From: Escherichia phage vB_Eco_Tribble
Sequence record: OX016465
Length of the DNA: 64,000 nt
Reading direction: 5' to 3' (one strand)
Positions 3,730-19,543 of this stretch are shown in pieces; position 1 is the stretch's first letter; each line of letters begins with the position of its first letter. The notes under the pieces were generated by a model that was given only the letters and a program-made list of their open reading frames with translations, was not told the DNA's origin and ran no database searches. The position numbers and the translations under genes were made by a program.

Positions 3730-5310
3730 ACGTCTATCGAATCCTTATACAAACCCTTTCCCTTTCCTTTCCAGAATCTTACTAGACCTTAAAAAGCAAT
3801 AACTCTATAGTCTACTCTATAACCTCTTATCAAATCAACTTAAATATAAGCCCATAACCCGAAAGGGAAGGGCAACCCCTTAAACGCTCTATAACGCCCT
3901 ATAACAGCCTTATCACCCTAACTTAAGCAATCATATTAACCCACCCTAAAAAGCCCTTTATAAAGCTTCTGAGAGCCTTAAAAGAACCTTATAAGGGTGA
4001 AAGCTTATAGGCTGGCTAGTATCTTGTGAATGATTAAACAAACCCCTTGATAGCTATTAAAAAGCATGTTATAGGGGTTATAAAGTTACTTTGAAGTAGC
4101 TTAAAAGTTACGTAAATGCTAGCCCCCTTAACATTTTTTTAACATTTTCTTAACAAACCCTACATAGTTATTCTTGTTAGCACCTTGTTAAATCTCTGTT
4201 AAGACCACGTAAAAACCTTGTAAGAACCTTTGGCATAGCCTTAAAAGCTCCTGTAAAGCCCTATAAAGAGCTACCCATACAGTTGAGGGGTAAATACTAG
4301 GGAGGGACTTAAAAGAGCCTATAAAGAGCTTTTAAGAGCTTTTAAGAGGTATGTTTAAGAAGTCACTAAGAAAGGAAAGGAACGATAAGAAAAGAGTAGT
4401 GACCATGTTAATAGCTTGTTAAAAAGATTAAACACTTGTTAGGAACTTGTTAATTATCTTAACAAAATAACTCTTTAAAATTAACTTGTTAGCTCTTGTT
4501 AGTCATCTGTTAAGCCTATGTAAAGACTATTCAGCACTTGTTAATTGGTATTGTTACCAATCCCTAGAAAACTGTTACAGCCTTGTTAGTTCTGTTAAGA
4601 ATCTGTTAAGACCTTTGAAGGGTTGTTAAGAAGATGTGAGAACTGTTAAGAGATTGTTAAGGATATTTTAAAATTTTGCAAAGGGGGTGTTAAGGGGCTG
4701 TTAAGGGCTACCAAGCAGATATACATCCTAATCAGATATTTTTCAGTTCCTTCAAAGACCCTAAAAAATGACTTGATAGCCCTATTTTATAAAAATTTTA
4801 AGATTCTGAATAATTACCTATACAGCCTTTTAAAAATACAGGTAATAACAGGCTTATAAGATACCTTGTTAGTACCGTGTTAGACCTTGTGAGATAAGGT
4901 CTGTGAAGATATTCCTGTTAAGTTTGTTAAAACAGTCTATATAGAGGCTTAGTAGTACCTAGTGAACACCTATAGAGAGTAACATAGCTAACCTAGAGAT
5001 TAAGAGGTGTATAGGAGCTTCTAAGAGGATATAGAGAGATGGTTAAGATGATTGTATAGGTTGTTTAGAAGGCTTGTTAGAAGAGTGTTTAGATGGCTAT
5101 TTAGAAGGGCTATACAGAGGGCTATTAAGACCACTAGATAGTTACTAAGATACTATATAGTACTATATAACTATATAGAGAGTAAGATTAAGAAGGTTGT
5201 TAAGAAGGATAGATATTTTATTCACATATGATGGTGACCCAGAGGTTGGGACAACCGATAAAATTTTATAAAAATTAAAAAGCCCCCAATTAAGGAGGCT
5301 CTTAAGATAT
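3730..5310. repeat. 1.6 kb ORF-free iteron-rich region between convergent gene blocks
   Basis: no ORF of 60 aa or more on either strand; at least 25 copies of YTGTTA(A/G)(G) (ctgttaag, cttgttag, ttgttaag) between about 4170 and 4930, plus clusters of CTATAA(A)G (3800-4330) and TATAGAG/TTAGAAG (4940-5220). Confidence 0.6.
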
Positions 5311-5311
5311 T

Positions 5312-5935
5312 TTAAATCAGTGTTTCCAGAACTGTTTTCAATGATGACTTGGTTGTCTGATAAAAATGAGTAAATCCATTGTTATTATCGAATACCTGCA
5401 TCATGATATCATCACCCTTGATTGGGTAAACTCGGATATCATAGTGAAAACCATTAAAGACACAAGAGCCATTACAGAATGCACTAAAGTCATCAACTGA
5501 GATATACTCTTCATGTCCTGTGATTTTTATACAAACGCCTTTACTCGGTCTCTTAGGGTTGATATCTTCCATCACAGACATACTCTGTCCACCAAGAGAT
5601 ACCATAGTGACCACTTTACGGTTCTTCTGTCTAAAGTACATTTTAACTTTCTGCAAAGTGTCTTCATAGAACGGATAAGACCTTTCTACAAAGATTCCTT
5701 CAAGTGGCTCTTTACCATTTTCAACTTCTCTGTTATGCCGTACTGCAAAGATGATTTGTTCGAACCAGTCAAGATTTTCTTCGGAGAGTGCTTCTCGAAC
5801 ATCACTCCAGTCAAGTACTAGATAGTTACCTTCAACATCTTTTAAGTTATCTTTTTCCATATCTATCACACCATTATCGTAAAACTTGATATTCTGGTAC
5901 TGCGAATTTATTACTATTGTTCTTGATGAGGTCAT
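5312..5935 (-). CDS. hypothetical protein (207 aa)
   Basis: ORF track; an internal ATG at 5860 would remove the overlap with the upstream gene. Confidence 0.55.
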   Translation of the reverse strand: MTSSRTIVINSQYQNIKFYDNGVIDMEKDNLKDVEGNYLVLDWSDVREALSEENLDWFEQIIFAVRHNREVENGKEPLEGIFVERSYPFYEDTLQKVKMYFRQKNRKVVTMVSLGGQSMSVMEDINPKRPSKGVCIKITGHEEYISVDDFSAFCNGSCVFNGFHYDIRVYPIKGDDIMMQVFDNNNGFTHFYQTTKSSLKTVLETLI

Positions 5936-13179: not shown

Positions 13180-13551
13180 ATGAAAAACAGAACAAACAAA
13201 GGCCAGTTTAAAAAAGGCCAATCTGGAAACCCATCTGGAAGACCAAAAGGCTCTCGTAACAAAAGCTCACTTGTAAAAGCTCAACTGACCATTGATAATT
13301 CTGCTGAGTTTGCTGCAAAGTTGTTTGAGGCGATTGTTACAAGGGACGCTGCTAAGCTTGCAGAGTTCGGGTTAAACACAGACGACGTAACCATCAAGAG
13401 CATGATTGAGGTAGGTAAAACTATCTTTACTCACTCAGCAGGTGAGATGAAAGCACTTGCAGCAGACACTAAGAAGACTCCTGATAATGGTGGTCAACAA
13501 CAGACAGATAACAAACCAACGTTCTCTGCTGTTGCAACCCTCAAAAAATAA
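13180..13551 (+). CDS. hypothetical protein with basic Gly/Pro/Arg/Lys-rich N-terminus (123 aa)
   Basis: ORF track; KGQSGNPSGRPKGSRNK motif. Confidence 0.6.
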   Translation: MKNRTNKGQFKKGQSGNPSGRPKGSRNKSSLVKAQLTIDNSAEFAAKLFEAIVTRDAAKLAEFGLNTDDVTIKSMIEVGKTIFTHSAGEMKALAADTKKTPDNGGQQQTDNKPTFSAVATLKK

Positions 13552-13632: not shown

Positions 13633-15048
13633 ATGAGCGAATTATTTAAACATGCGCACCTTCATGCAGGTCGAACTGAAAATGGTGCTGTAAACCATAC
13701 TTCATCAATGTCTGCTCTTGTAGACTTTTACAAAGCTGCTGGTTCAAGCCGTAGCAACGTAGAAATCTTACCAGACCTGTTCTACAAAGCTTTGCGTGAG
13801 GATGTTGATGTTGCAGTTCGTATTTTGCTTCATATGCGAGATGTACGAGAAGGTATGGGTGAGCGTAAAGCCTTCAGAACTGTTTTGCTTCAAGCAATTG
13901 AAGACAAAGTTTTAGAGTCTACGCAGGTTCTTCGCATTATGGATAAGATTGCAGAACTTGGTCGTTTTGATGACTTCAAAATCTTCGTAGGTACTCGTTT
14001 CGAGACAGATGCCTTCAAACATTTAGAAGCAGCATTACTAGACCCTGCAACAGCAGGTTTGGCGGCTAAGTGGTTACCACGAGTCAAACCACGTCATAAG
14101 CAGTTTGTAAAACGTTTCTGCAAGTTTGCCAACTTGAGTGAGAAAGAGTACCGCACACTGTTGTCTGCACTATCTGATACAGTTGAGCAAAAAATCTCTG
14201 CTAATGAGTTTGGTAAGATTGACTACAGTAAGATTCCTTCACTTGCTGCTGCACGTTACCAAAAACTGTTTAACCGTAAAGATGGAGAGCGTTACAAAGC
14301 TTACATCGAGTCCTTATCAAAAGGTGAGACTAAGATTAACGCTGGTGCTGTTTACCCATACGATGTGATTAAATCTGTCAAGTATGGTAATGCAGATGTT
14401 GCTAATGAGCAGTGGAAAGCACTACCAAACTGGATGGCAGAAGGTGAAAACATCTTGTGTATGTCTGATGTATCAAGTTCAATGTCTTGGGTGAATTTTG
14501 GCTCCATTACTGCTCTGGATATTGGTGTATCACTTGCCTTGTATGTAGCAGAACGCAATACAGGTTGCTTTAAGAATGAGTTAATGGTTTATTCAACAAA
14601 CCCTCACTTCATCGAACTGAGTGGTGATTTACGAAACCGTCATCGTCAGGTGATGCGACACGTTGAATATGGCTCAACTAACTTACAAGCAGCTTTTGAC
14701 CGCATTCTTGAAACAGGTAAAAGAAACAACTTGACTCAGAAAGATATGCCAAGTAAGCTTATCATCTTCTCCGATATGGAGTTCAATCAGGTTGATGGAG
14801 CTAACGGTCGTACAAACTTTGAAGCAATTCAGAGTAAGTACAAAAAAGCTGGATATGAGATGCCACAACTGGTATTCTGGTACTTAGCAAACCGTAATGG
14901 TACTTGCGAAGTATCTGTTAAGGATAACGGTGTAGCAATGGTATCAGGGTTCTCTCCAGCCACTTTAAAAGCTCTGCTTGGTGGTGAGAAGTTTGACCCA
15001 ATCAGTGTAATGCTCAAAGCAGTAATGATTGACCGTTATATCTGGTAA
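13633..15048 (+). CDS. vWA-domain protein with DUF2828-like N-terminal region (471 aa)
   Basis: MIDAS-like DVSSSMS at about residue 280 and downstream FSDMEF; N-terminal TENGA..ALVDFYKAAG recalled as the DUF2828 signature; no canonical Ro60 TROVE motif seen. Confidence 0.6.
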   Translation: MSELFKHAHLHAGRTENGAVNHTSSMSALVDFYKAAGSSRSNVEILPDLFYKALREDVDVAVRILLHMRDVREGMGERKAFRTVLLQAIEDKVLESTQVLRIMDKIAELGRFDDFKIFVGTRFETDAFKHLEAALLDPATAGLAAKWLPRVKPRHKQFVKRFCKFANLSEKEYRTLLSALSDTVEQKISANEFGKIDYSKIPSLAAARYQKLFNRKDGERYKAYIESLSKGETKINAGAVYPYDVIKSVKYGNADVANEQWKALPNWMAEGENILCMSDVSSSMSWVNFGSITALDIGVSLALYVAERNTGCFKNELMVYSTNPHFIELSGDLRNRHRQVMRHVEYGSTNLQAAFDRILETGKRNNLTQKDMPSKLIIFSDMEFNQVDGANGRTNFEAIQSKYKKAGYEMPQLVFWYLANRNGTCEVSVKDNGVAMVSGFSPATLKALLGGEKFDPISVMLKAVMIDRYIW

Positions 15049-15066: not shown

Positions 15067-15095
15067 TTGACAATGTGTTTAATACCCTTTAATAT
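15067..15095 (+). promoter_or_regulatory. sigma70-like promoter upstream of the tRNA array
   Basis: TTGACA 15067-15072, 17 nt spacer, TAATAT 15090-15095; flanked by inverted repeat AAGGGTATT / AATACCCTT. Confidence 0.6.
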
Positions 15096-15157
15096 GTTCT
15101 ACATAGAAGCGAAATGAGAGCTTTTCTAAGATACTGAAAAATATTTTAAAAAAGTTC

Positions 15158-15187
15158 TTGACAACCACTAAAAAATAATGTTAAAGT
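15158..15187 (+). promoter_or_regulatory. second sigma70-like promoter upstream of the tRNA array
   Basis: TTGACA 15158-15163, 18 nt spacer, TAAAGT; inverted repeat ACCACT / AGTGGT. Confidence 0.45.
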
Positions 15188-15382: not shown

Positions 15383-15455
15383 CAGAAGACCAATTACAGC
15401 AAACTTAATCTTATTCATCTGAAGGTAAATCGGACAAAGAAGAGATTTGGTCTGG
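15383..15455 (+). other. conserved stem element E1 (candidate structured RNA or processing site)
   Basis: 5' CAGAAGACCaat..TTACAGCAA and 3' ttGGTCTGG; AGACCAA pairs with TTGGTCT. Confidence 0.35.
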
Positions 15456-15466
15456 TCATTAAGAAT

Positions 15467-15543
15467 TGCGGGTATAGAGAAAGGGCGTCTCACATGTCTC
15501 ATTAGCATGGTATCGGCAGGTTCGACTCCTGCACCCGCCTCCA
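15467..15543 (+). tRNA. tRNA-Met (anticodon CAT; initiator/elongator/Ile2 not resolved)
   Basis: acceptor with 1-72 mismatch, T-arm GCAGGttcgactCCTGC, anticodon loop CTCATTA, CCA. Confidence 0.6.
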
Positions 15544-15549
15544 ATTTTG

Positions 15550-15610
15550 CAGAAGACCGTATTCAGCAACAAAATACTTTTTTGCGGATAAAAGAAAAAA
15601 CACGGTCTGG
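15550..15610 (+). other. conserved stem element E2
   Basis: 5' CAGAAGACCgt..ATTCAGCAA, 3' acGGTCTGG; AGACCGT pairs with ACGGTCT (compensatory relative to E1). Confidence 0.35.
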
Positions 15611-15621
15611 CAATGTATTAA

Positions 15622-15698
15622 GGTTAGGAAGCACATAAGGTATGTGCGGTCGCCTGTTAAGCGAATGGCACAGGGTTCGAATCCCTGACTAACCGCCA
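15622..15698 (+). tRNA. tRNA-Asn (anticodon GTT)
   Basis: acceptor GGTTAGG/ACTAACC (one mismatch), anticodon loop CTGTTAA, T-arm CAGGGttcgaatCCCTG, CCA. Confidence 0.75.
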
Positions 15699-15705
15699 AA
15701 TTAAA

Positions 15706-15794
15706 TGTGTCGTTATCCCGTAGATGGTAGCGGTGGGGACTGTAAATCCCTTGTCATTGAGACTCGGTAGGTTCGACTCCTACACGGCACACCA
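15706..15794 (+). tRNA. tRNA-Tyr (anticodon GTA), long variable arm
   Basis: acceptor GTGTCGT/ACGGCAC, anticodon loop CTGTAAA, long variable arm, T-arm GTAGGttcgactCCTAC, CCA. Confidence 0.75.
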
Positions 15795-15799
15795 ATAAA

Positions 15800-15876
15800 G
15801 GCTATGTAGTTTAACTGGAGAAAATACTCCCCTGTCACGGGAGATGATGTGAGTTCAAGTCTCATCGTAGCCGCCA
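15800..15876 (+). tRNA. tRNA-Asp (anticodon GTC)
   Basis: acceptor GGCTATG/CGTAGCC, anticodon stem CTCCC/GGGAG, loop CTGTCAC, CCA. Confidence 0.8.
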
Positions 15877-15937
15877 ATTTTGAGAGGGCTATTTAGCCCC
15901 TCCCTTAAAGAGTTCTTACGAGTATTCTTTAAGGGAG

Positions 15938-16011
15938 CAGAAGACCAAATACAGCAAGAATGTATGAAATTTCAAGCCAATTTAATTTTGAAAATTTAAA
16001 ACTTGGTCTGG
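15938..16011 (+). other. conserved stem element E3
   Basis: 5' CAGAAGACCaaa..ATACAGCAA, 3' ttGGTCTGG; preceded by hairpins at 15881-15934 (CCCTTAAAG..CTTTAAGGG). Confidence 0.35.
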
Positions 16012-16024
16012 CTCAACAAATTTA

Positions 16025-16156
16025 CAGAAGGCCGTTTACAGCAAAACTTAAACAATCTATTTCTCCGGTACAGAAAAGGCGAAGGTTCGATTCCTTCACT
16101 CGGCAGATGTCGAGTTGGTGTAATGGTAGCACTTAAGATGATAAACAACGGTCTGG
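16025..16156 (+). other. conserved stem element E4 enclosing a tRNA-like mimic
   Basis: 5' CAGAAGGCCgtt..TTACAGCAA, 3' aacGGTCTGG (AGGCCGTT pairs with AACGGTCT including G-U); interior has a T-arm GAAGGttcgattCCTTC and an anticodon-arm-like hairpin TTTCT-ccggtac-AGAAA but no canonical D-arm, acceptor pairing or CCA. Confidence 0.4.
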
Positions 16157-16306
16157 TAATTACCTTTGTAGATAAGTTATTAAGCTTACTTGTGAGTATG
16201 CGACCACAAAGGGTGAATGGGTAAATTCTAGATTTAAACCCAAAAAAGGCACATCGCTACAGACCTTAAGCAAGTCTGGGTAGCTTATCTACAAAGATAA
16301 TTTAAT

Positions 16307-16386: not shown

Positions 16387-16463
16387 GGTTCAGTCGCAGA
16401 TAAGGTAATGCAAGGGTCTCATAAGCCCTATGAATGTGGGTTCGATTCCCATCTGAACCTCCA
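16387..16463 (+). tRNA. tRNA-Met (anticodon CAT)
   Basis: acceptor GGTTCAG/CTGAACC, anticodon stem AGGGT/GCCCT with loop CTCATAA, T-loop TTCGATT, CCA. Confidence 0.7.
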
Positions 16464-16555: not shown

Positions 16556-16584
16556 TTGACATTGAGATGTGACTACTTTATAGT
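16556..16584 (+). promoter_or_regulatory. sigma70-like promoter inside the tRNA island
   Basis: TTGACA 16556-16561, 17 nt spacer, TATAGT 16579-16584. Confidence 0.55.
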
Positions 16585-16787
16585 AACCTTAGTTTTCGTT
16601 GCGTAGCGTCTATTTTGCAAATTTAAAATAAATGCAAACGACAATGTTTTTCTGGCAGTAGCTTGATAGGCTAAACACCAGTGAGGTCTTCCAATCCCTC
16701 ATCAAAGAATTTGGCGTACTCGCCCACGGTATGATTAATAAGGTGGGCATCTTTAAGGGCTTTCTAAGAGAGTCTTTAAAGATAATG

Positions 16788-17005: not shown

Positions 17006-17085
17006 ATGGGACGATGTTAAGACTCTAAGGCATGAGCAACGGCCTCCAAAACCGTTTCAAAGGGGTTCAACTCCTCCGTCCCATG
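17006..17085 (+). tRNA. tRNA-Trp-like (anticodon CCA), atypical extended D region, no encoded CCA
   Basis: acceptor ATGGGAC/GTCCCAT perfect, anticodon arm ACGGC-cTCCAaa-ACCGT, T-loop TTCAACT; about 7 extra nt between acceptor and anticodon stem. Confidence 0.45.
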
Positions 17086-17100
17086 CTAAAGATTGTTTCG

Positions 17101-17188
17101 GAGAGAGTGGCGGTCAACGGAGACCAACCAGCCTTGAAAACTGGTGCTGCTGGAAACGGTACGGGTTCAACTCCTGCACTCTCTGCCA
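17101..17188 (+). tRNA. tRNA-Ser (anticodon TGA), long variable arm
   Basis: acceptor AGAGAGT/ACTCTCT, anticodon loop CTTGAAA, long variable arm, T-loop TTCAACT, CCA. Confidence 0.7.
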
Positions 17189-17211
17189 AAATAATTTTTA
17201 AGGTGGTGATT

Positions 17212-17553
17212 ATGAAGAAAGGTTCAGTAGGTGAAATTGCTACACAATTAGCTTTCCTCAAAAGAGGTTATGAAGTATATTCACCAGCTACAGATAATGC
17301 AAAGTATGACTTTCTAGTTCACAAAGATGGTTTGATTGAAACTGTTGAGGTAAAATCAACATCAGTCAAAAGAGGTGAACTTTGGAGAGTGCAACTGAAA
17401 AGAGTTCGTTCTAACAAGAATGAAAATAGAATAATGAATTTTGATAACTCTCAAGTTGATTACTTAGCTGTTTACATTGAACCACTTGATAAAGTCGTCA
17501 TCTACAAAGCTAAAGATGTCAAGTCTAAGACTGAACTTAGCTTAAAGATTTAA
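17212..17553 (+). CDS. putative PD-(D/E)XK-type nuclease (about 113 aa)
   Basis: ORF track 17032-17553 trimmed to ATG 17212 (RBS AAGGTGG) because the upstream part overlaps two tRNAs; YDFLV...ETVEVKS resembles a D...E-x-K nuclease core. Confidence 0.45.
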   Translation: MKKGSVGEIATQLAFLKRGYEVYSPATDNAKYDFLVHKDGLIETVEVKSTSVKRGELWRVQLKRVRSNKNENRIMNFDNSQVDYLAVYIEPLDKVVIYKAKDVKSKTELSLKI

Positions 17554-18125: not shown

Positions 18126-18201
18126 CTCCTATCGTATAATTGGTTATTACGGTTGCCTTGTAAGCAACTTATCAGGGTTCGAGTCCTTGTGGGAGCACCA
18201 A
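18126..18201 (+). tRNA. tRNA-Thr (anticodon TGT)
   Basis: acceptor GCTCCTA/TGGGAGC, anticodon stem GTTGC/GCAAC loop CTTGTAA, T-loop TTCGAGT, CCA. Confidence 0.8.
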
Positions 18202-18297
18202 TTCAGAGGTCAAGTGAAAGACCGCTTTGAGTCAACTGAAGACCGTAACAAATTCCACGAAGTTGAGTTAGCGGCACAACTTCAGACCTCTTTCATA
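18202..18297 (+). other. structured spacer element (inverted repeat CAGAGGTC...GACCTCT enclosing a GAAGACCGTAACAA motif)
   Basis: about 8 bp terminal inverted repeat flanking roughly 70 nt; internal motif resembles the 5' motif of elements E1-E4. Confidence 0.3.
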
Positions 18298-19385: not shown

Positions 19386-19461
19386 GTGGCCTTATCATAA
19401 ACGGTAATGACCCATGCTGTGAACATGGTCTATACGGGTTCAAATCCCGTAGGTCACCCCA
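19386..19461 (+). tRNA. tRNA-His (anticodon GTG)
   Basis: acceptor GTGGCCT/AGGTCAC, anticodon stem CCATG/CATGG loop CTGTGAA, T-arm ACGGGttcaaatCCCGT, CCA. Confidence 0.75.
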
Positions 19462-19466
19462 ATTTA

Positions 19467-19543
19467 TAGTCCAAGTAGCTTATATGGTTAAAGCGCGTGT
19501 CTGAAAAACATGAGAAGAGGGTTCAAATCCCACTGGACTACCA
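19467..19543 (+). tRNA. tRNA-Phe (anticodon GAA), boundaries approximate
   Basis: acceptor TAGTCCA/TGGACTA, D-arm GCTTatatggttaAAGC, anticodon loop CTGAAAA, T-loop TTCAAAT; 2 extra nt near positions 8-9. Confidence 0.6.

What the first reader, a model, noticed from the sequence alone, without database searches (positions are those of the whole stretch)
15383..16156. Family of four conserved stem elements with compensatory base changes, one enclosing a tRNA-like mimic, in the tRNA-island spacers
Four spacers carry the same architecture: 5' CAGAAG(A/G)CC-NNN-(A/T)T(T/A)CAGCAA ... NNN-GGTCTGG 3'. The variable nucleotides flanking the conserved cores co-vary so that a 7-8 bp terminal helix is kept: AGACCAA/TTGGTCT at 15386/15447, AGACCGT/ACGGTCT at 15553/15602, AGACCAA/TTGGTCT at 15941/16003, AGGCCGTT/AACGGTCT at 16028/16147. 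Compensatory change argues for selection on structure, not sequence. The fourth element encloses a T-arm (GAAGGttcgattCCTTC) and an anticodon-arm-like hairpin but lacks a proper D-arm, acceptor pairing and CCA. A closed terminal helix around a tRNA-like module is the described architecture of bacterial and phage Y RNAs, and a vWA protein gene lies immediately upstream. Alternatives are RNase processing sites or small stable RNAs.
Basis: partly seen in the sequence, partly recalled or inferred. Interest (0 to 1): 0.8.

Follow-up and report, generated by a model that had tools for sequence, protein, structure and literature searches.

The report
Y-RNA-like partners of phage Ro protein
Four small unannotated RNA genes sit between the tRNA genes of this Felix O1-like phage, one of them a rearranged tRNA, and they belong to a widespread and apparently undescribed RNA family that always lies beside a phage relative of the human Ro60 protein, which is known to help such phages overcome a bacterial defence.

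Summary
Four co-oriented elements (15383-15456, 15550-15611, 15938-16012, 16025-16157) share one design: 5'-CAG-A-[AGRCCNN]-WUWCAGCAA ... [NNGGYCU]-GG-3', with a 7-bp closing helix.

It needs three corrections:
- The 5' arm coordinates are one base low.
- E4 is not missing arms. It is a complete tRNA cloverleaf, circularly permuted, with the acceptor stem capped by a loop and the chain opened between the D and anticodon arms. ARAGORN calls it tRNA-Thr once it is re-joined.
- It is not a YrlA member. It gives no Rfam hit and carries CAGCAA where YrlA has CGAA.

The same module occurs next to DUF2828 genes in very different phages (Klebsiella, Aeromonas, Campylobacter, Listeria, Mycobacterium and metagenomic contigs). 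A covariance model gave 68 hits in 994 kb, all on the gene strand. Of 70 pattern-defined elements, 83% lie within 700 nt of the gene. Forty distinct helix sequences keep pairing. A related phage with neither the gene nor the elements supports the link.

The most likely role is the RNA partners of the Ro-like protein. Binding and expression are untested.

The parts
13633..15048 (+). Gene for the Ro60-like protein (471 aa). The N-terminal helical-repeat domain is DUF2828 and the C-terminal vWA-type domain is DUF7788, with a DxSxS MIDAS motif at D279/S281/S283.
   Evidence: Pfam hits PF11443 and PF25043. PHROG 850 'RNA-binding protein'. AlphaFold2 model with pLDDT 87.7. The top 12 Foldseek PDB hits are all Ro60/Rsr/phage phiLo Ro60, E 1.8e-8 to 1.3e-6, TM 0.37-0.66. 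Invariant residues.
15067..15187 (+). Two sigma-70-like promoters (15067-15095 and 15158-15187) that would drive the tRNA/E1-E4 transcript.
   Evidence: The next promoter-like site on the + strand with a consensus -35 hexamer is at 16556 (a weaker 9-of-12 match at 16446 lies inside a tRNA gene). There is no + strand terminator-like site between 15200 and 16450.
15383..15456 (+). E1, a small element: helix 15387-15393/15447-15453, motif UUACAGCAA 15394-15402, inner hairpin 15418-15434 (5-bp stem, 7-nt loop).
   Evidence: Model R2 scores it 37.1 bits, E 5e-5 (an identical FelixO1 copy was in the training set).
15550..15611 (+). E2, a small element: helix 15554-15560/15602-15608, motif AUUCAGCAA 15561-15569, inner hairpin 15577-15594.
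   Evidence: R2 scores it 37.2 bits, E 4e-5.
15938..16012 (+). E3, a small element: helix 15942-15948/16003-16009, motif AUACAGCAA 15949-15957, inner hairpin 15970-15993.
   Evidence: R2 scores it 25.8 bits, E 0.008 (no E3-type sequence was in the training set).
16025..16157 (+). E4, a tRNA-like element. The same handle (helix 16029-16035/16148-16154, motif 16036-16044) encloses a circularly permuted cloverleaf: junction stem 16047-16051/16133-16137, anticodon-arm-like hairpin 16060-16076, T arm 16081-16097, acceptor-like hairpin 16098-16115 (loop AGAU), D arm 16118-16132.
   Evidence: RNAalifold; three compensatory pairs in the acceptor hairpin; ARAGORN calls the re-joined sequence tRNA-Thr(GGU).

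Best explanation
E1-E4 are genes for small non-coding RNAs that act as the Y-RNA-type partners of the Ro60-like protein encoded just upstream. They are transcribed with nine tRNAs from the promoters at 15067/15158. They would be released by the tRNA-processing machinery: RNase P at the 5' end of each downstream tRNA, then endonuclease cuts and 3' trimming back to the closing helix. Each RNA carries a common handle. The handle is a 7-bp helix that starts A-G-R and ends Y-C-U. It is flanked by conserved unpaired A(A) on the 5' side and G(R) on the 3' side, and the single-stranded WUWCAGCAA follows directly on the 5' strand. I propose that this handle is the protein's binding site. The variable interior is the working end: a short hairpin in E1-E3 and a whole permuted tRNA in E4. 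By analogy with Ro60/Y RNA particles, the interior would gate the protein ring or tether it to tRNA-recognising enzymes or tRNA-targeting nucleases during infection. What is shown here: the conserved anatomy, the helix covariation, the association with the gene and its strand, and the Ro60 fold of the protein. What is inferred: binding, processing and cellular role.
For: Protein: the Ro60 fold spans the full length, the MIDAS motif is conserved, and homologues in cluster L mycobacteriophages are annotated 'Ro-like RNA binding protein'. A gene in the same position in Bas63 (g130) is called Ro60-like and counters the Ppl defence. RNA family: the strict 5' pattern occurs 122 times on the gene strand and 3 times on the other strand across 91 loci, against 4-7 in shuffles. 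Of 88 non-redundant 5' segments, 87.5% have a complementary partner downstream, against 15% when partners are swapped between elements; there are 40 distinct helix sequences. Six of the seven pairs covary, with all four Watson-Crick types at four positions. Model R2 gave 68 hits at E<=0.1 in 994 kb, all on the gene strand, in 46 of 75 DUF2828 loci. Of 70 elements, 58 lie within 700 nt of the gene, a zone that is 13% of the flanking DNA. The module is found in Klebsiella, Aeromonas, Campylobacter, Listeria and Mycobacterium phages. Negative controls: Arno162, an Ounavirinae phage with a syntenic tRNA island, has no DUF2828 gene and no elements. The tRNA islands of T2 and a T5-like phage gave no hit. 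In KVP40-like phages the module sits in the gene's own leader, with the start codon in the 3' strand. That is the arrangement expected of a binding site used for autoregulation. E4 is conserved with compensatory changes, and other phages carry permuted tRNA versions on the same handle.
Against: There are no expression, end-mapping or binding data. In the PhageMaP work gp130 expressed alone restored T7 growth on Ppl hosts, so that phenotype does not need the phage RNAs. The elements do not match Rfam YrlA and lack the CGAA Ro-binding motif. The helices are short and AU-rich, and their folding energy is unremarkable. The reverse test was inconclusive. Of about 16 genuine-looking elements found by a motif scan of viral contigs, only 4 had a DUF2828 gene in the short stretch of DNA held.
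Confidence: 0.7

Rival explanations
1. The elements are protein-binding operators only. The Ro-like protein binds them in long transcripts (its own mRNA or the tRNA precursor) to regulate translation or processing, and they never exist as separate stable RNAs.
For: In KVP40-like phages the module overlaps the Shine-Dalgarno sequence and start codon of the DUF2828 gene. In many metagenomic loci a single element lies directly upstream or downstream of the gene.
Against: In the window the four copies lie 335-1100 nt beyond the stop codon, behind two promoters and interleaved with tRNAs. Several copies per phage carry elaborate conserved interiors, including whole permuted tRNAs, which an operator does not need.
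Confidence: 0.13
2. They are punctuation or processing signals of the tRNA operon, recognised by host RNases to separate the tRNAs, and are unrelated to the upstream protein.
For: They sit in tRNA spacers, 6-12 nt from the tRNA ends, and no promoter or terminator lies between them.
Against: Most tRNA junctions in the same island lack them. They occur beside DUF2828 genes with no adjacent tRNAs, in LeBron and in Listeria phage List-36. They are absent from the tRNA islands of Arno162, T2 and a T5-like phage.
Confidence: 0.08
3. They are small mobile or repeat elements with terminal inverted repeats that have spread within the tRNA island.
For: There are four copies with similar ends and different interiors. 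Homing endonuclease genes are common in these islands.
Against: They are strictly strand-specific (122 against 3; 68 against 0). The helix sequence differs between lineages while pairing and the single-stranded motif are kept. Copies are positionally orthologous in 17 related genomes.
Confidence: 0.03

Closest known systems
YrlA / bacterial Y RNAs bound by Rsr (Ro60), including those of mycobacteriophages with TROVE-type Ro (Chen et al. 2014, PMC4201824; Rfam RF02553)
   Same: They are encoded next to, and on the same strand as, a Ro60-fold protein. A terminal stem carries the 5' and 3' ends. E4 has a tRNA-like domain in the order hairpin, T arm, loop-capped acceptor stem, D arm. Several Y-type RNAs occur per locus, one tRNA-like and others smaller, as with YrlA and YrlB.
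   Different: The protein belongs to Pfam DUF2828/DUF7788, not TROVE. The conserved motif is WUWCAGCAA after a 7-bp helix, not GNCGAAN0-1G. The RF02553 model gives no match. E4 keeps an anticodon-arm-like hairpin at the correct distance from the T arm, so the chain appears to open at position 26. The genes are embedded in a tRNA operon.
Thermus phage phiLo Ro60 with Yrl1/Yrl2 (NAR 2025, PMC12135203; PDB 9KOP, 9L5Y)
   Same: It is a phage-encoded Ro60-fold protein with phage-encoded Y-like RNAs beside the gene, and the phiLo Ro60 structures are among the top structural matches to the window protein.
   Different: The phiLo RNAs were picked by the CGAA motif in an internal bulge. Neither a tRNA-like domain nor the CAGCAA handle came up in the passages I read.
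Circularly permuted (two-piece) tmRNA genes
   Same: The tRNA-like domain is encoded in permuted order. In some relatives of E4 the acceptor 3' strand is followed by NCCA and a spacer before the 5' strand (L023, L024, L028). That arrangement could be cut into two pieces.
   Different: E4 has no tag reading frame or pseudoknots. In the window the acceptor stem is closed by a 4-nt loop and there is no CCA.
Autoregulatory mRNA operators that mimic a protein's RNA ligand (for example the threonyl-tRNA synthetase operator; from general knowledge)
   Same: In KVP40-like phages the same handle lies in the leader of the DUF2828 mRNA, over the ribosome-binding site.
   Different: This is not the arrangement in the window, and regulation has not been tested.

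Membership tests
YrlA / bacterial Y RNA (Rfam RF02553) | Encoded within a few kb of a Ro60 orthologue, on the same strand | tested here: met
   E1-E4 start 335-977 nt after the stop codon of ORF 13633-15048, on the same strand. The protein's model matches Ro60/Rsr over its full length.
YrlA / bacterial Y RNA (Rfam RF02553) | tRNA-like domain with V, T, loop-capped acceptor and D stem-loops in that order | tested here: met
   Met for E4 only: the MFE and RNAalifold structures agree, and ARAGORN accepts the re-joined sequence. E1-E3 have no such domain, like YrlB.
YrlA / bacterial Y RNA (Rfam RF02553) | GNCGAAN0-1G (CGAA) Ro-binding motif near the 5' end | tested here: not met
   None of the four elements has it. 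The conserved motif is WUWCAGCAA.
YrlA / bacterial Y RNA (Rfam RF02553) | Match to the family covariance model | tested here: not met
   No RF02553 match over E1-E4 even at E<=10. The only YrlA hit (19407-19529, 17 bits against a gathering score of 69) lies over ordinary tRNAs.
YrlA / bacterial Y RNA (Rfam RF02553) | Physically bound by the Ro protein in cells | not testable with these tools
   Needs immunoprecipitation or a gel-shift assay.
Ro60 / TROVE protein family (the upstream ORF) | Helical-repeat ring joined to a vWA domain with a MIDAS motif | tested here: met
   The model has pLDDT 87.7. The top 12 PDB matches are all Ro60-type, E down to 1.8e-8, with alignments of 512-558 columns. 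DxSxS is invariant in 40 homologues.
Ro60 / TROVE protein family (the upstream ORF) | Sequence match to Pfam TROVE or to solved Ro60 chains | tested here: not met
   Pfam gives only DUF2828 and DUF7788, even at E<=10. The profile search against PDB sequences gives Ro60 at E 0.77-1.1, which is not significant.
Canonical tRNA (RF00005) | Cloverleaf in the normal 5'-3' order with free acceptor ends | tested here: not met
   ARAGORN finds nothing at E4. Rfam tRNA gives a partial match of 20 bits at 16048-16098. Only the artificially re-joined sequence is accepted.
Intrinsic terminator or sigma-70 promoter | GC-rich hairpin followed by a U run, or -35/-10 hexamers | tested here: not met
   No + strand site of either kind falls on E1-E4.

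The most novel reading that the evidence does not exclude
E1-E4 are the first recognised examples of a phage-wide class of modular Ro-like particles. One protein-binding handle (the 7-bp helix plus CAGCAA) is used to display different tRNA parts: whole permuted tRNAs, normal-order tRNA-like RNAs whose anticodon region holds the handle, and bare anticodon-stem-loop look-alikes, including exact lysine (CUUUUAA, CUCUUAA), methionine and tyrosine loops. These would decoy, sense or repair damage from host nucleases that cut tRNA anticodon loops. The same handle is reused in the protein's own mRNA for feedback control.
Probability: 0.3. Interest if true: 0.9.

Novelty: new variant of a known kind. 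Interest (0 to 1): 0.78.

Why it matters
Relatives of this protein are present in 709 of 50,697 deposited phage genomes. A gene in the same position in one Felixounavirus was shown to defeat the Ppl defence system, and its authors could only guess that 'some tRNA genes' might be its Y RNAs. Pinpointing the actual RNAs, with a simple recognisable handle, makes that question directly testable. It gives annotators a way to find these genes; RefSeq leaves these spacers empty. It also explains several over-long 'tRNA' annotations in other phages. Finally, it extends the Ro60/Y-RNA partnership to a second, sequence-unrelated protein-RNA pair, which bears on how such particles evolve from tRNAs.

Tried and rejected
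- Rfam at gathering and at E<=10 gave nothing for E1-E4. The only hits were chance matches to Dictyostelium class I RNA and a partial tRNA hit.
- Sequence searches of the protein against PDB chains and NCBIfam were uninformative. The fold was needed.
- A first covariance model (R1) built from constructs with the interior removed performed poorly on real sequence and was dropped.
- ARAGORN on doubled E4 sequences, and on my first loosely re-joined constructs, found almost nothing. Only re-joining at position 26 worked, and the L023 version still failed.
- A relaxed helix-plus-CAGCA scan of the window was swamped by chance matches and showed no further copies.
- The reverse scan of viral contigs for AAAGRNNNNTTACAGCAAA returned 120 stretches. 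About 16 were genuine-looking elements, but the DNA held around them was too short to say whether a DUF2828 gene is present.
- The candidate fifth copy at 18236 (CTGAAGACC) lacks the motif and is part of a different hairpin.
- Literature searches for DUF2828, Ro-like, Bas63 and Y RNA found no description of these RNAs.

Full report
**What the window is.** The region is 99.8% identical to Escherichia phage fjerdesal and 94-99% identical to many Felix O1-like phages (Felixounavirus, Ounavirinae). ARAGORN finds 26 tRNA genes on the + strand between 15214 and 20468. The finding concerns the spacers between the first tRNAs.

**Checking the observation.** All four elements are present as described.
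- CAGAAGRCC occurs exactly at 15383, 15550, 15938 and 16025. The only other exact copy (58567) is in coding sequence and has no motif.
- GGTCTGG occurs on the + strand at 15449, 15604, 16005 and 16150.
- The closing helix is 7 bp. Its positions are E1 15387-15393/15447-15453, E2 15554-15560/15602-15608, E3 15942-15948/16003-16009 and E4 16029-16035/16148-16154. The 9-nt motif WUWCAGCAA follows the 5' strand directly.
- Folding energies are ordinary (z -0.8 to -2.8), so the case for structure has to come from comparison with other genomes.
- RefSeq and GenBank records of close relatives annotate nothing in these spacers.

**The upstream protein.**
- ORF 13633-15048 matches Pfam DUF2828 and DUF7788, and PHROG 850 'RNA-binding protein'. 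It has no significant sequence match to TROVE or to solved structures.
- An AlphaFold2 model built on 40 homologues (pLDDT 87.7, pTM 0.88) was searched against the PDB. The top twelve matches were all Ro60-type proteins: Xenopus and human Ro60, Deinococcus Rsr and Thermus phage phiLo Ro60. E-values ran from 1.8e-8 to 1.3e-6 and the alignments covered 512-558 columns. Isolated vWA domains followed only at E>=3e-3.
- The DxSxS metal-site motif is invariant.
- Homologues in cluster L mycobacteriophages are already labelled 'Ro-like RNA binding protein'.
- The PhageMaP preprint reports that Bas63, a Felixounavirus, has a gene (g130) directly upstream of its tRNA genes whose product is structurally like Ro60 and counters the Ppl defence. 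Its authors speculate only that 'some tRNA genes ... are possibly Y RNAs'. I take g130 to be the counterpart of the window ORF from its position and fold; I did not compare the sequences.

**E4 is a complete, circularly permuted tRNA.**
- The minimum-energy fold and an RNAalifold consensus of nine Ounavirinae versions give the same parts in the same order: closing helix, a 5-bp junction stem (16047-16051/16133-16137), a hairpin with a 5-bp stem and 7-nt loop (16060-16076), a 4-nt linker, the T arm (16081-16097), a 7-bp acceptor-like stem capped by AGAU (16098-16115), UG, and the D arm (16118-16132).
- The acceptor stem changes completely between genera but stays paired: ACUCGGC/GUCGAGU, ACACG/CGUGU and ACCCUUC/GAAGGGU.
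- I opened the acceptor loop, added CCA, and joined the D arm to the hairpin at position 26. ARAGORN then called the window and L021 versions tRNA-Thr(GGU) and the Sf14 version tRNA-Ile(UAU). The L023 version was not called.
- The order hairpin, T, acceptor, D is the order described for YrlA.

**The elements are conserved in place.** All four occur in the same order in Felix O1, in the Mooglevirus Sf14, and in 13 of 15 Felix-like viral contigs. One of the other two contigs is cut off and one lacks a detectable E4. The interiors diverge and the ends are kept. More distant Ounavirinae with the gene also carry elements: three in L213 (63% protein identity) and at least two in Yersinia phage P778, with the variant ends AGGAC.../...GUCCAG.

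**The family is far wider than this phage.**
- Homologues of the protein are found in 709 of 50,697 phage records.
- Next to the gene in Klebsiella phage FBKp34, Aeromonas phage 4_4572, Campylobacter phage F371, Listeria phage List-36, mycobacteriophage LeBron and dozens of metagenomic viral contigs, the same module recurs: 5'-(A)A-[AGR NNNN]-WUWCAGCAA ... [N'N'N'N' YCU]-G(R/U)-3'.
- LeBron uses UGR.../...YCA, which is a U-A for A-U swap at the first pair, with RNACAGCAA. List-36 uses UAACAGCAA.

**Numbers for the family.**
- The strict 5' pattern occurs 122 times on the gene strand and 3 times on the other strand in 1.1 Mb, against 4-7 in block shuffles. A partner was found for 104 of the 122.
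- Among 88 non-redundant 5' segments with 40 different helix sequences, 87.5% have their own complementary partner within 270 nt. When they are matched to another element's downstream sequence the figure is 15% (maximum 24% in 200 permutations).
- On 61 distinct elements, six of the seven pairs covary and four positions show all four Watson-Crick pair types. Slid registers pair at 32-42%. That set was selected for pairing, so the permutation test is the unbiased one.
- A covariance model built from 36 real small elements (R2) found only E2, E1 and E3 in the 64-kb window. E3 scored E = 0.008 and was of a type not in the training set.
- Over 75 DUF2828 loci plus a control genome (994 kb, both strands), R2 gave 68 hits at E<=0.1. 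Every hit was on the gene strand, and they fell in 46 loci.
- In the non-Felix loci, 58 of 70 elements lie within 700 nt of the gene, a zone making up 13% of the flanking DNA.

**Controls.**
- Pectobacterium phage Arno162 is an Ounavirinae member with a syntenic tRNA island and the neighbouring small gene, orf68, in the position of the DUF5681 gene (its family was not tested). It has no DUF2828 homologue anywhere (hmmsearch E<=10) and no elements.
- The tRNA islands of T2 and of a T5-like phage gave no R2 hit below E = 0.5 with filters off.
- The reverse test was inconclusive. Scanning viral contigs for the motif and then asking whether the gene is nearby failed because the DNA held around the hits was short.

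**One handle, several scaffolds.**
- Permuted tRNAs on the same handle occur in FBKp34 (L004 6688-6812), LeBron (L008, about 5495-5616), L028, L036, L072, L140 and L198. Some have NCCA after the acceptor 3' strand.
- In T4-like phages (Cronobacter S13, Aeromonas Ah1 and relatives), in the Lahexavirus Aeromonas phage 4_4572 and in FBKp34, the handle is closed into a hairpin (...YCU-GA..-AGR...), still followed by UACAGCAA. It is inserted into otherwise normal-order tRNA-like genes of 111-121 nt that Rfam scores as tRNA at 41-57 bits. Several of these are annotated as tRNA-Ser, tRNA-Asp or tRNA-OTHER.
- The conserved unpaired G and A next to the helix form the loop in this closed form. That shows the handle is one structural unit.
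- In KVP40-like phages the handle lies in the leader of the DUF2828 mRNA, with the ribosome-binding site in the loop and the start codon in the 3' strand. A protein binding its own message there is the simplest reading, and it supports the idea that the handle is the protein's binding site.

**Transcription in the window.** Two promoter-like sites (15067, 15158) precede the first tRNA. The next site with a consensus -35 hexamer is at 16556, and a weaker 9-of-12 match at 16446 lies inside a tRNA gene. No + strand terminator-like site lies between them. E1-E4 are therefore most likely made as part of the tRNA precursor and freed by tRNA processing. The spacers to the flanking tRNAs are only 6-12 nt for E1 and E2. 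This step is inferred.

**Most likely mechanism.** Ro60 proteins are rings that bind Y RNAs on their outer face. The Y RNA gates the ring or tethers it to other enzymes such as PNPase. I propose that the DUF2828 protein binds the 7-bp helix/CAGCAA handle of E1-E4. The interiors, a tRNA in E4 and short hairpins in E1-E3, would then present tRNA-like surfaces to tRNA-recognising enzymes or nucleases. Neighbouring RNA-repair genes in other phages fit an RNA repair or quality-control setting: an RtcB-type ligase in List-36, RNA ligase 2 in Aeromonas 4_4572 and a CCA-adding enzyme in Cronobacter S13. Against a strict requirement for the RNAs, gp130 alone rescued T7 on Ppl hosts.

**Comparison with what is known.** The system works like Rsr/YrlA and like phiLo Ro60/Yrl, but it is not a member of the YrlA family as that family is defined. 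It has no CGAA motif and no match to RF02553, and the protein is outside Pfam TROVE. I found no paper describing these RNAs. I therefore rate it a new variant of a known kind: a second, sequence-unrelated Ro-type protein/RNA pair, widespread in phages.

Noticed in passing
window 16634-16666 (+): A tmRNA-like tag reading frame, GCAAACGACAATGTTTTTCTGGCAGTAGCTTGA = ANDNVFLAVA* (the E. coli tag, from general knowledge, is ANDENYALAA*). It starts 50 nt after the strong promoter at 16556-16584, between tRNA-Ile and tRNA-Arg. It is conserved in Felix O1, Sf14 and six other relatives, with synonymous changes (GAC/GAT, stop TGA/TAA). ARAGORN calls no tmRNA and the Rfam tmRNA hits are below threshold (29 and 16 bits). 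No tRNA-like domain of its own is evident.
   Followed up: partly
window 16158-16306 (+): The spacer after E4 folds into a long closed structure held by a 13-bp inverted repeat (CTTTGTAGATAAG / CTTATCTACAAAG), with MFE -43.9 kcal/mol. It may be another structured RNA in the tRNA island.
   Followed up: partly
window 18195-18296 (+): A spacer between tRNA-Thr and tRNA-Val forms an extended hairpin (z = -2.9). Part of it also occurs in Sf14. It contains CTGAAGACC but not the CAGCAA motif, so it is not a fifth family member.
   Followed up: partly
window 17008-17085 (+): A tRNA-like sequence with paired ends (GGGACG.../...CGUCCC) and a T-arm-like GGGGUUCAACUCC. ARAGORN does not call it, and Rfam gives tRNA-Sec at 23 bits, E 0.43. 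It may be a degenerate tRNA.
   Followed up: no
L007 6895-7015 and 7025-7137; L011 7787-7905; L006 2494-2610; L004 7003-7116: In Cronobacter phage S13, Aeromonas phages Ah1 and 4_4572, and Klebsiella phage FBKp34, tRNA-like sequences of 111-121 nt near the DUF2828 gene carry the closed-hairpin form of the handle plus UACAGCAA, inserted after the D arm. Those in S13 and FBKp34 are annotated as tRNA genes (tRNA-Ser, tRNA-OTHER, tRNA-Asp); those in the two Aeromonas phages are unannotated. They are likely Y-type RNAs mislabelled as, or overlooked alongside, tRNAs.
   Followed up: partly
L044 5869-5927, L116, L157, L208, L028 4091-4147, L006 4908-4957, L198, L109: The interiors of many small family members are hairpins with a 5-bp stem and 7-nt loop. 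About 8 of about 20 distinct 7-nt loops have the canonical anticodon-loop pattern. They include CUUUUAA on three different stems (the lysine UUU loop), CUCUUAA, CUCAUAA, CUGUAAC and CUUACAC. This suggests anticodon-stem-loop mimicry.
   Followed up: partly
L029 5964-6007; L005 about 4965-5007; L027 5972: In KVP40-like Vibrio phages the handle lies in the 5' leader of the DUF2828 gene. The Shine-Dalgarno sequence is in the loop and the AUG is in the 3' strand, which suggests translational autoregulation.
   Followed up: partly
L010 6810-8021; L006 10071-10994; L007 11280-11395: RNA-repair or tRNA-maturation genes lie within a few kb of the DUF2828 gene in other phages: a tRNA-splicing (RtcB-type) ligase in Listeria phage List-36, RNA ligase 2 in Aeromonas phage 4_4572 and a tRNA nucleotidyltransferase in Cronobacter phage S13.
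   Followed up: no
window 13180-13551 (+): A small DUF5681 gene sits immediately upstream of the Ro-like gene. The same pairing is seen in L212 and L213. In Arno162, which has lost or never had the Ro-like gene, a small gene of similar size (orf68) occupies the same position; I did not test its family.
   Followed up: no
window 17032-17553 (+): An ORF with a PD-(D/E)XK endonuclease domain lies inside the tRNA island, with its likely true start near 17214. Related phages have HNH homing endonucleases inserted in the same island, which causes length differences between genomes.
   Followed up: no
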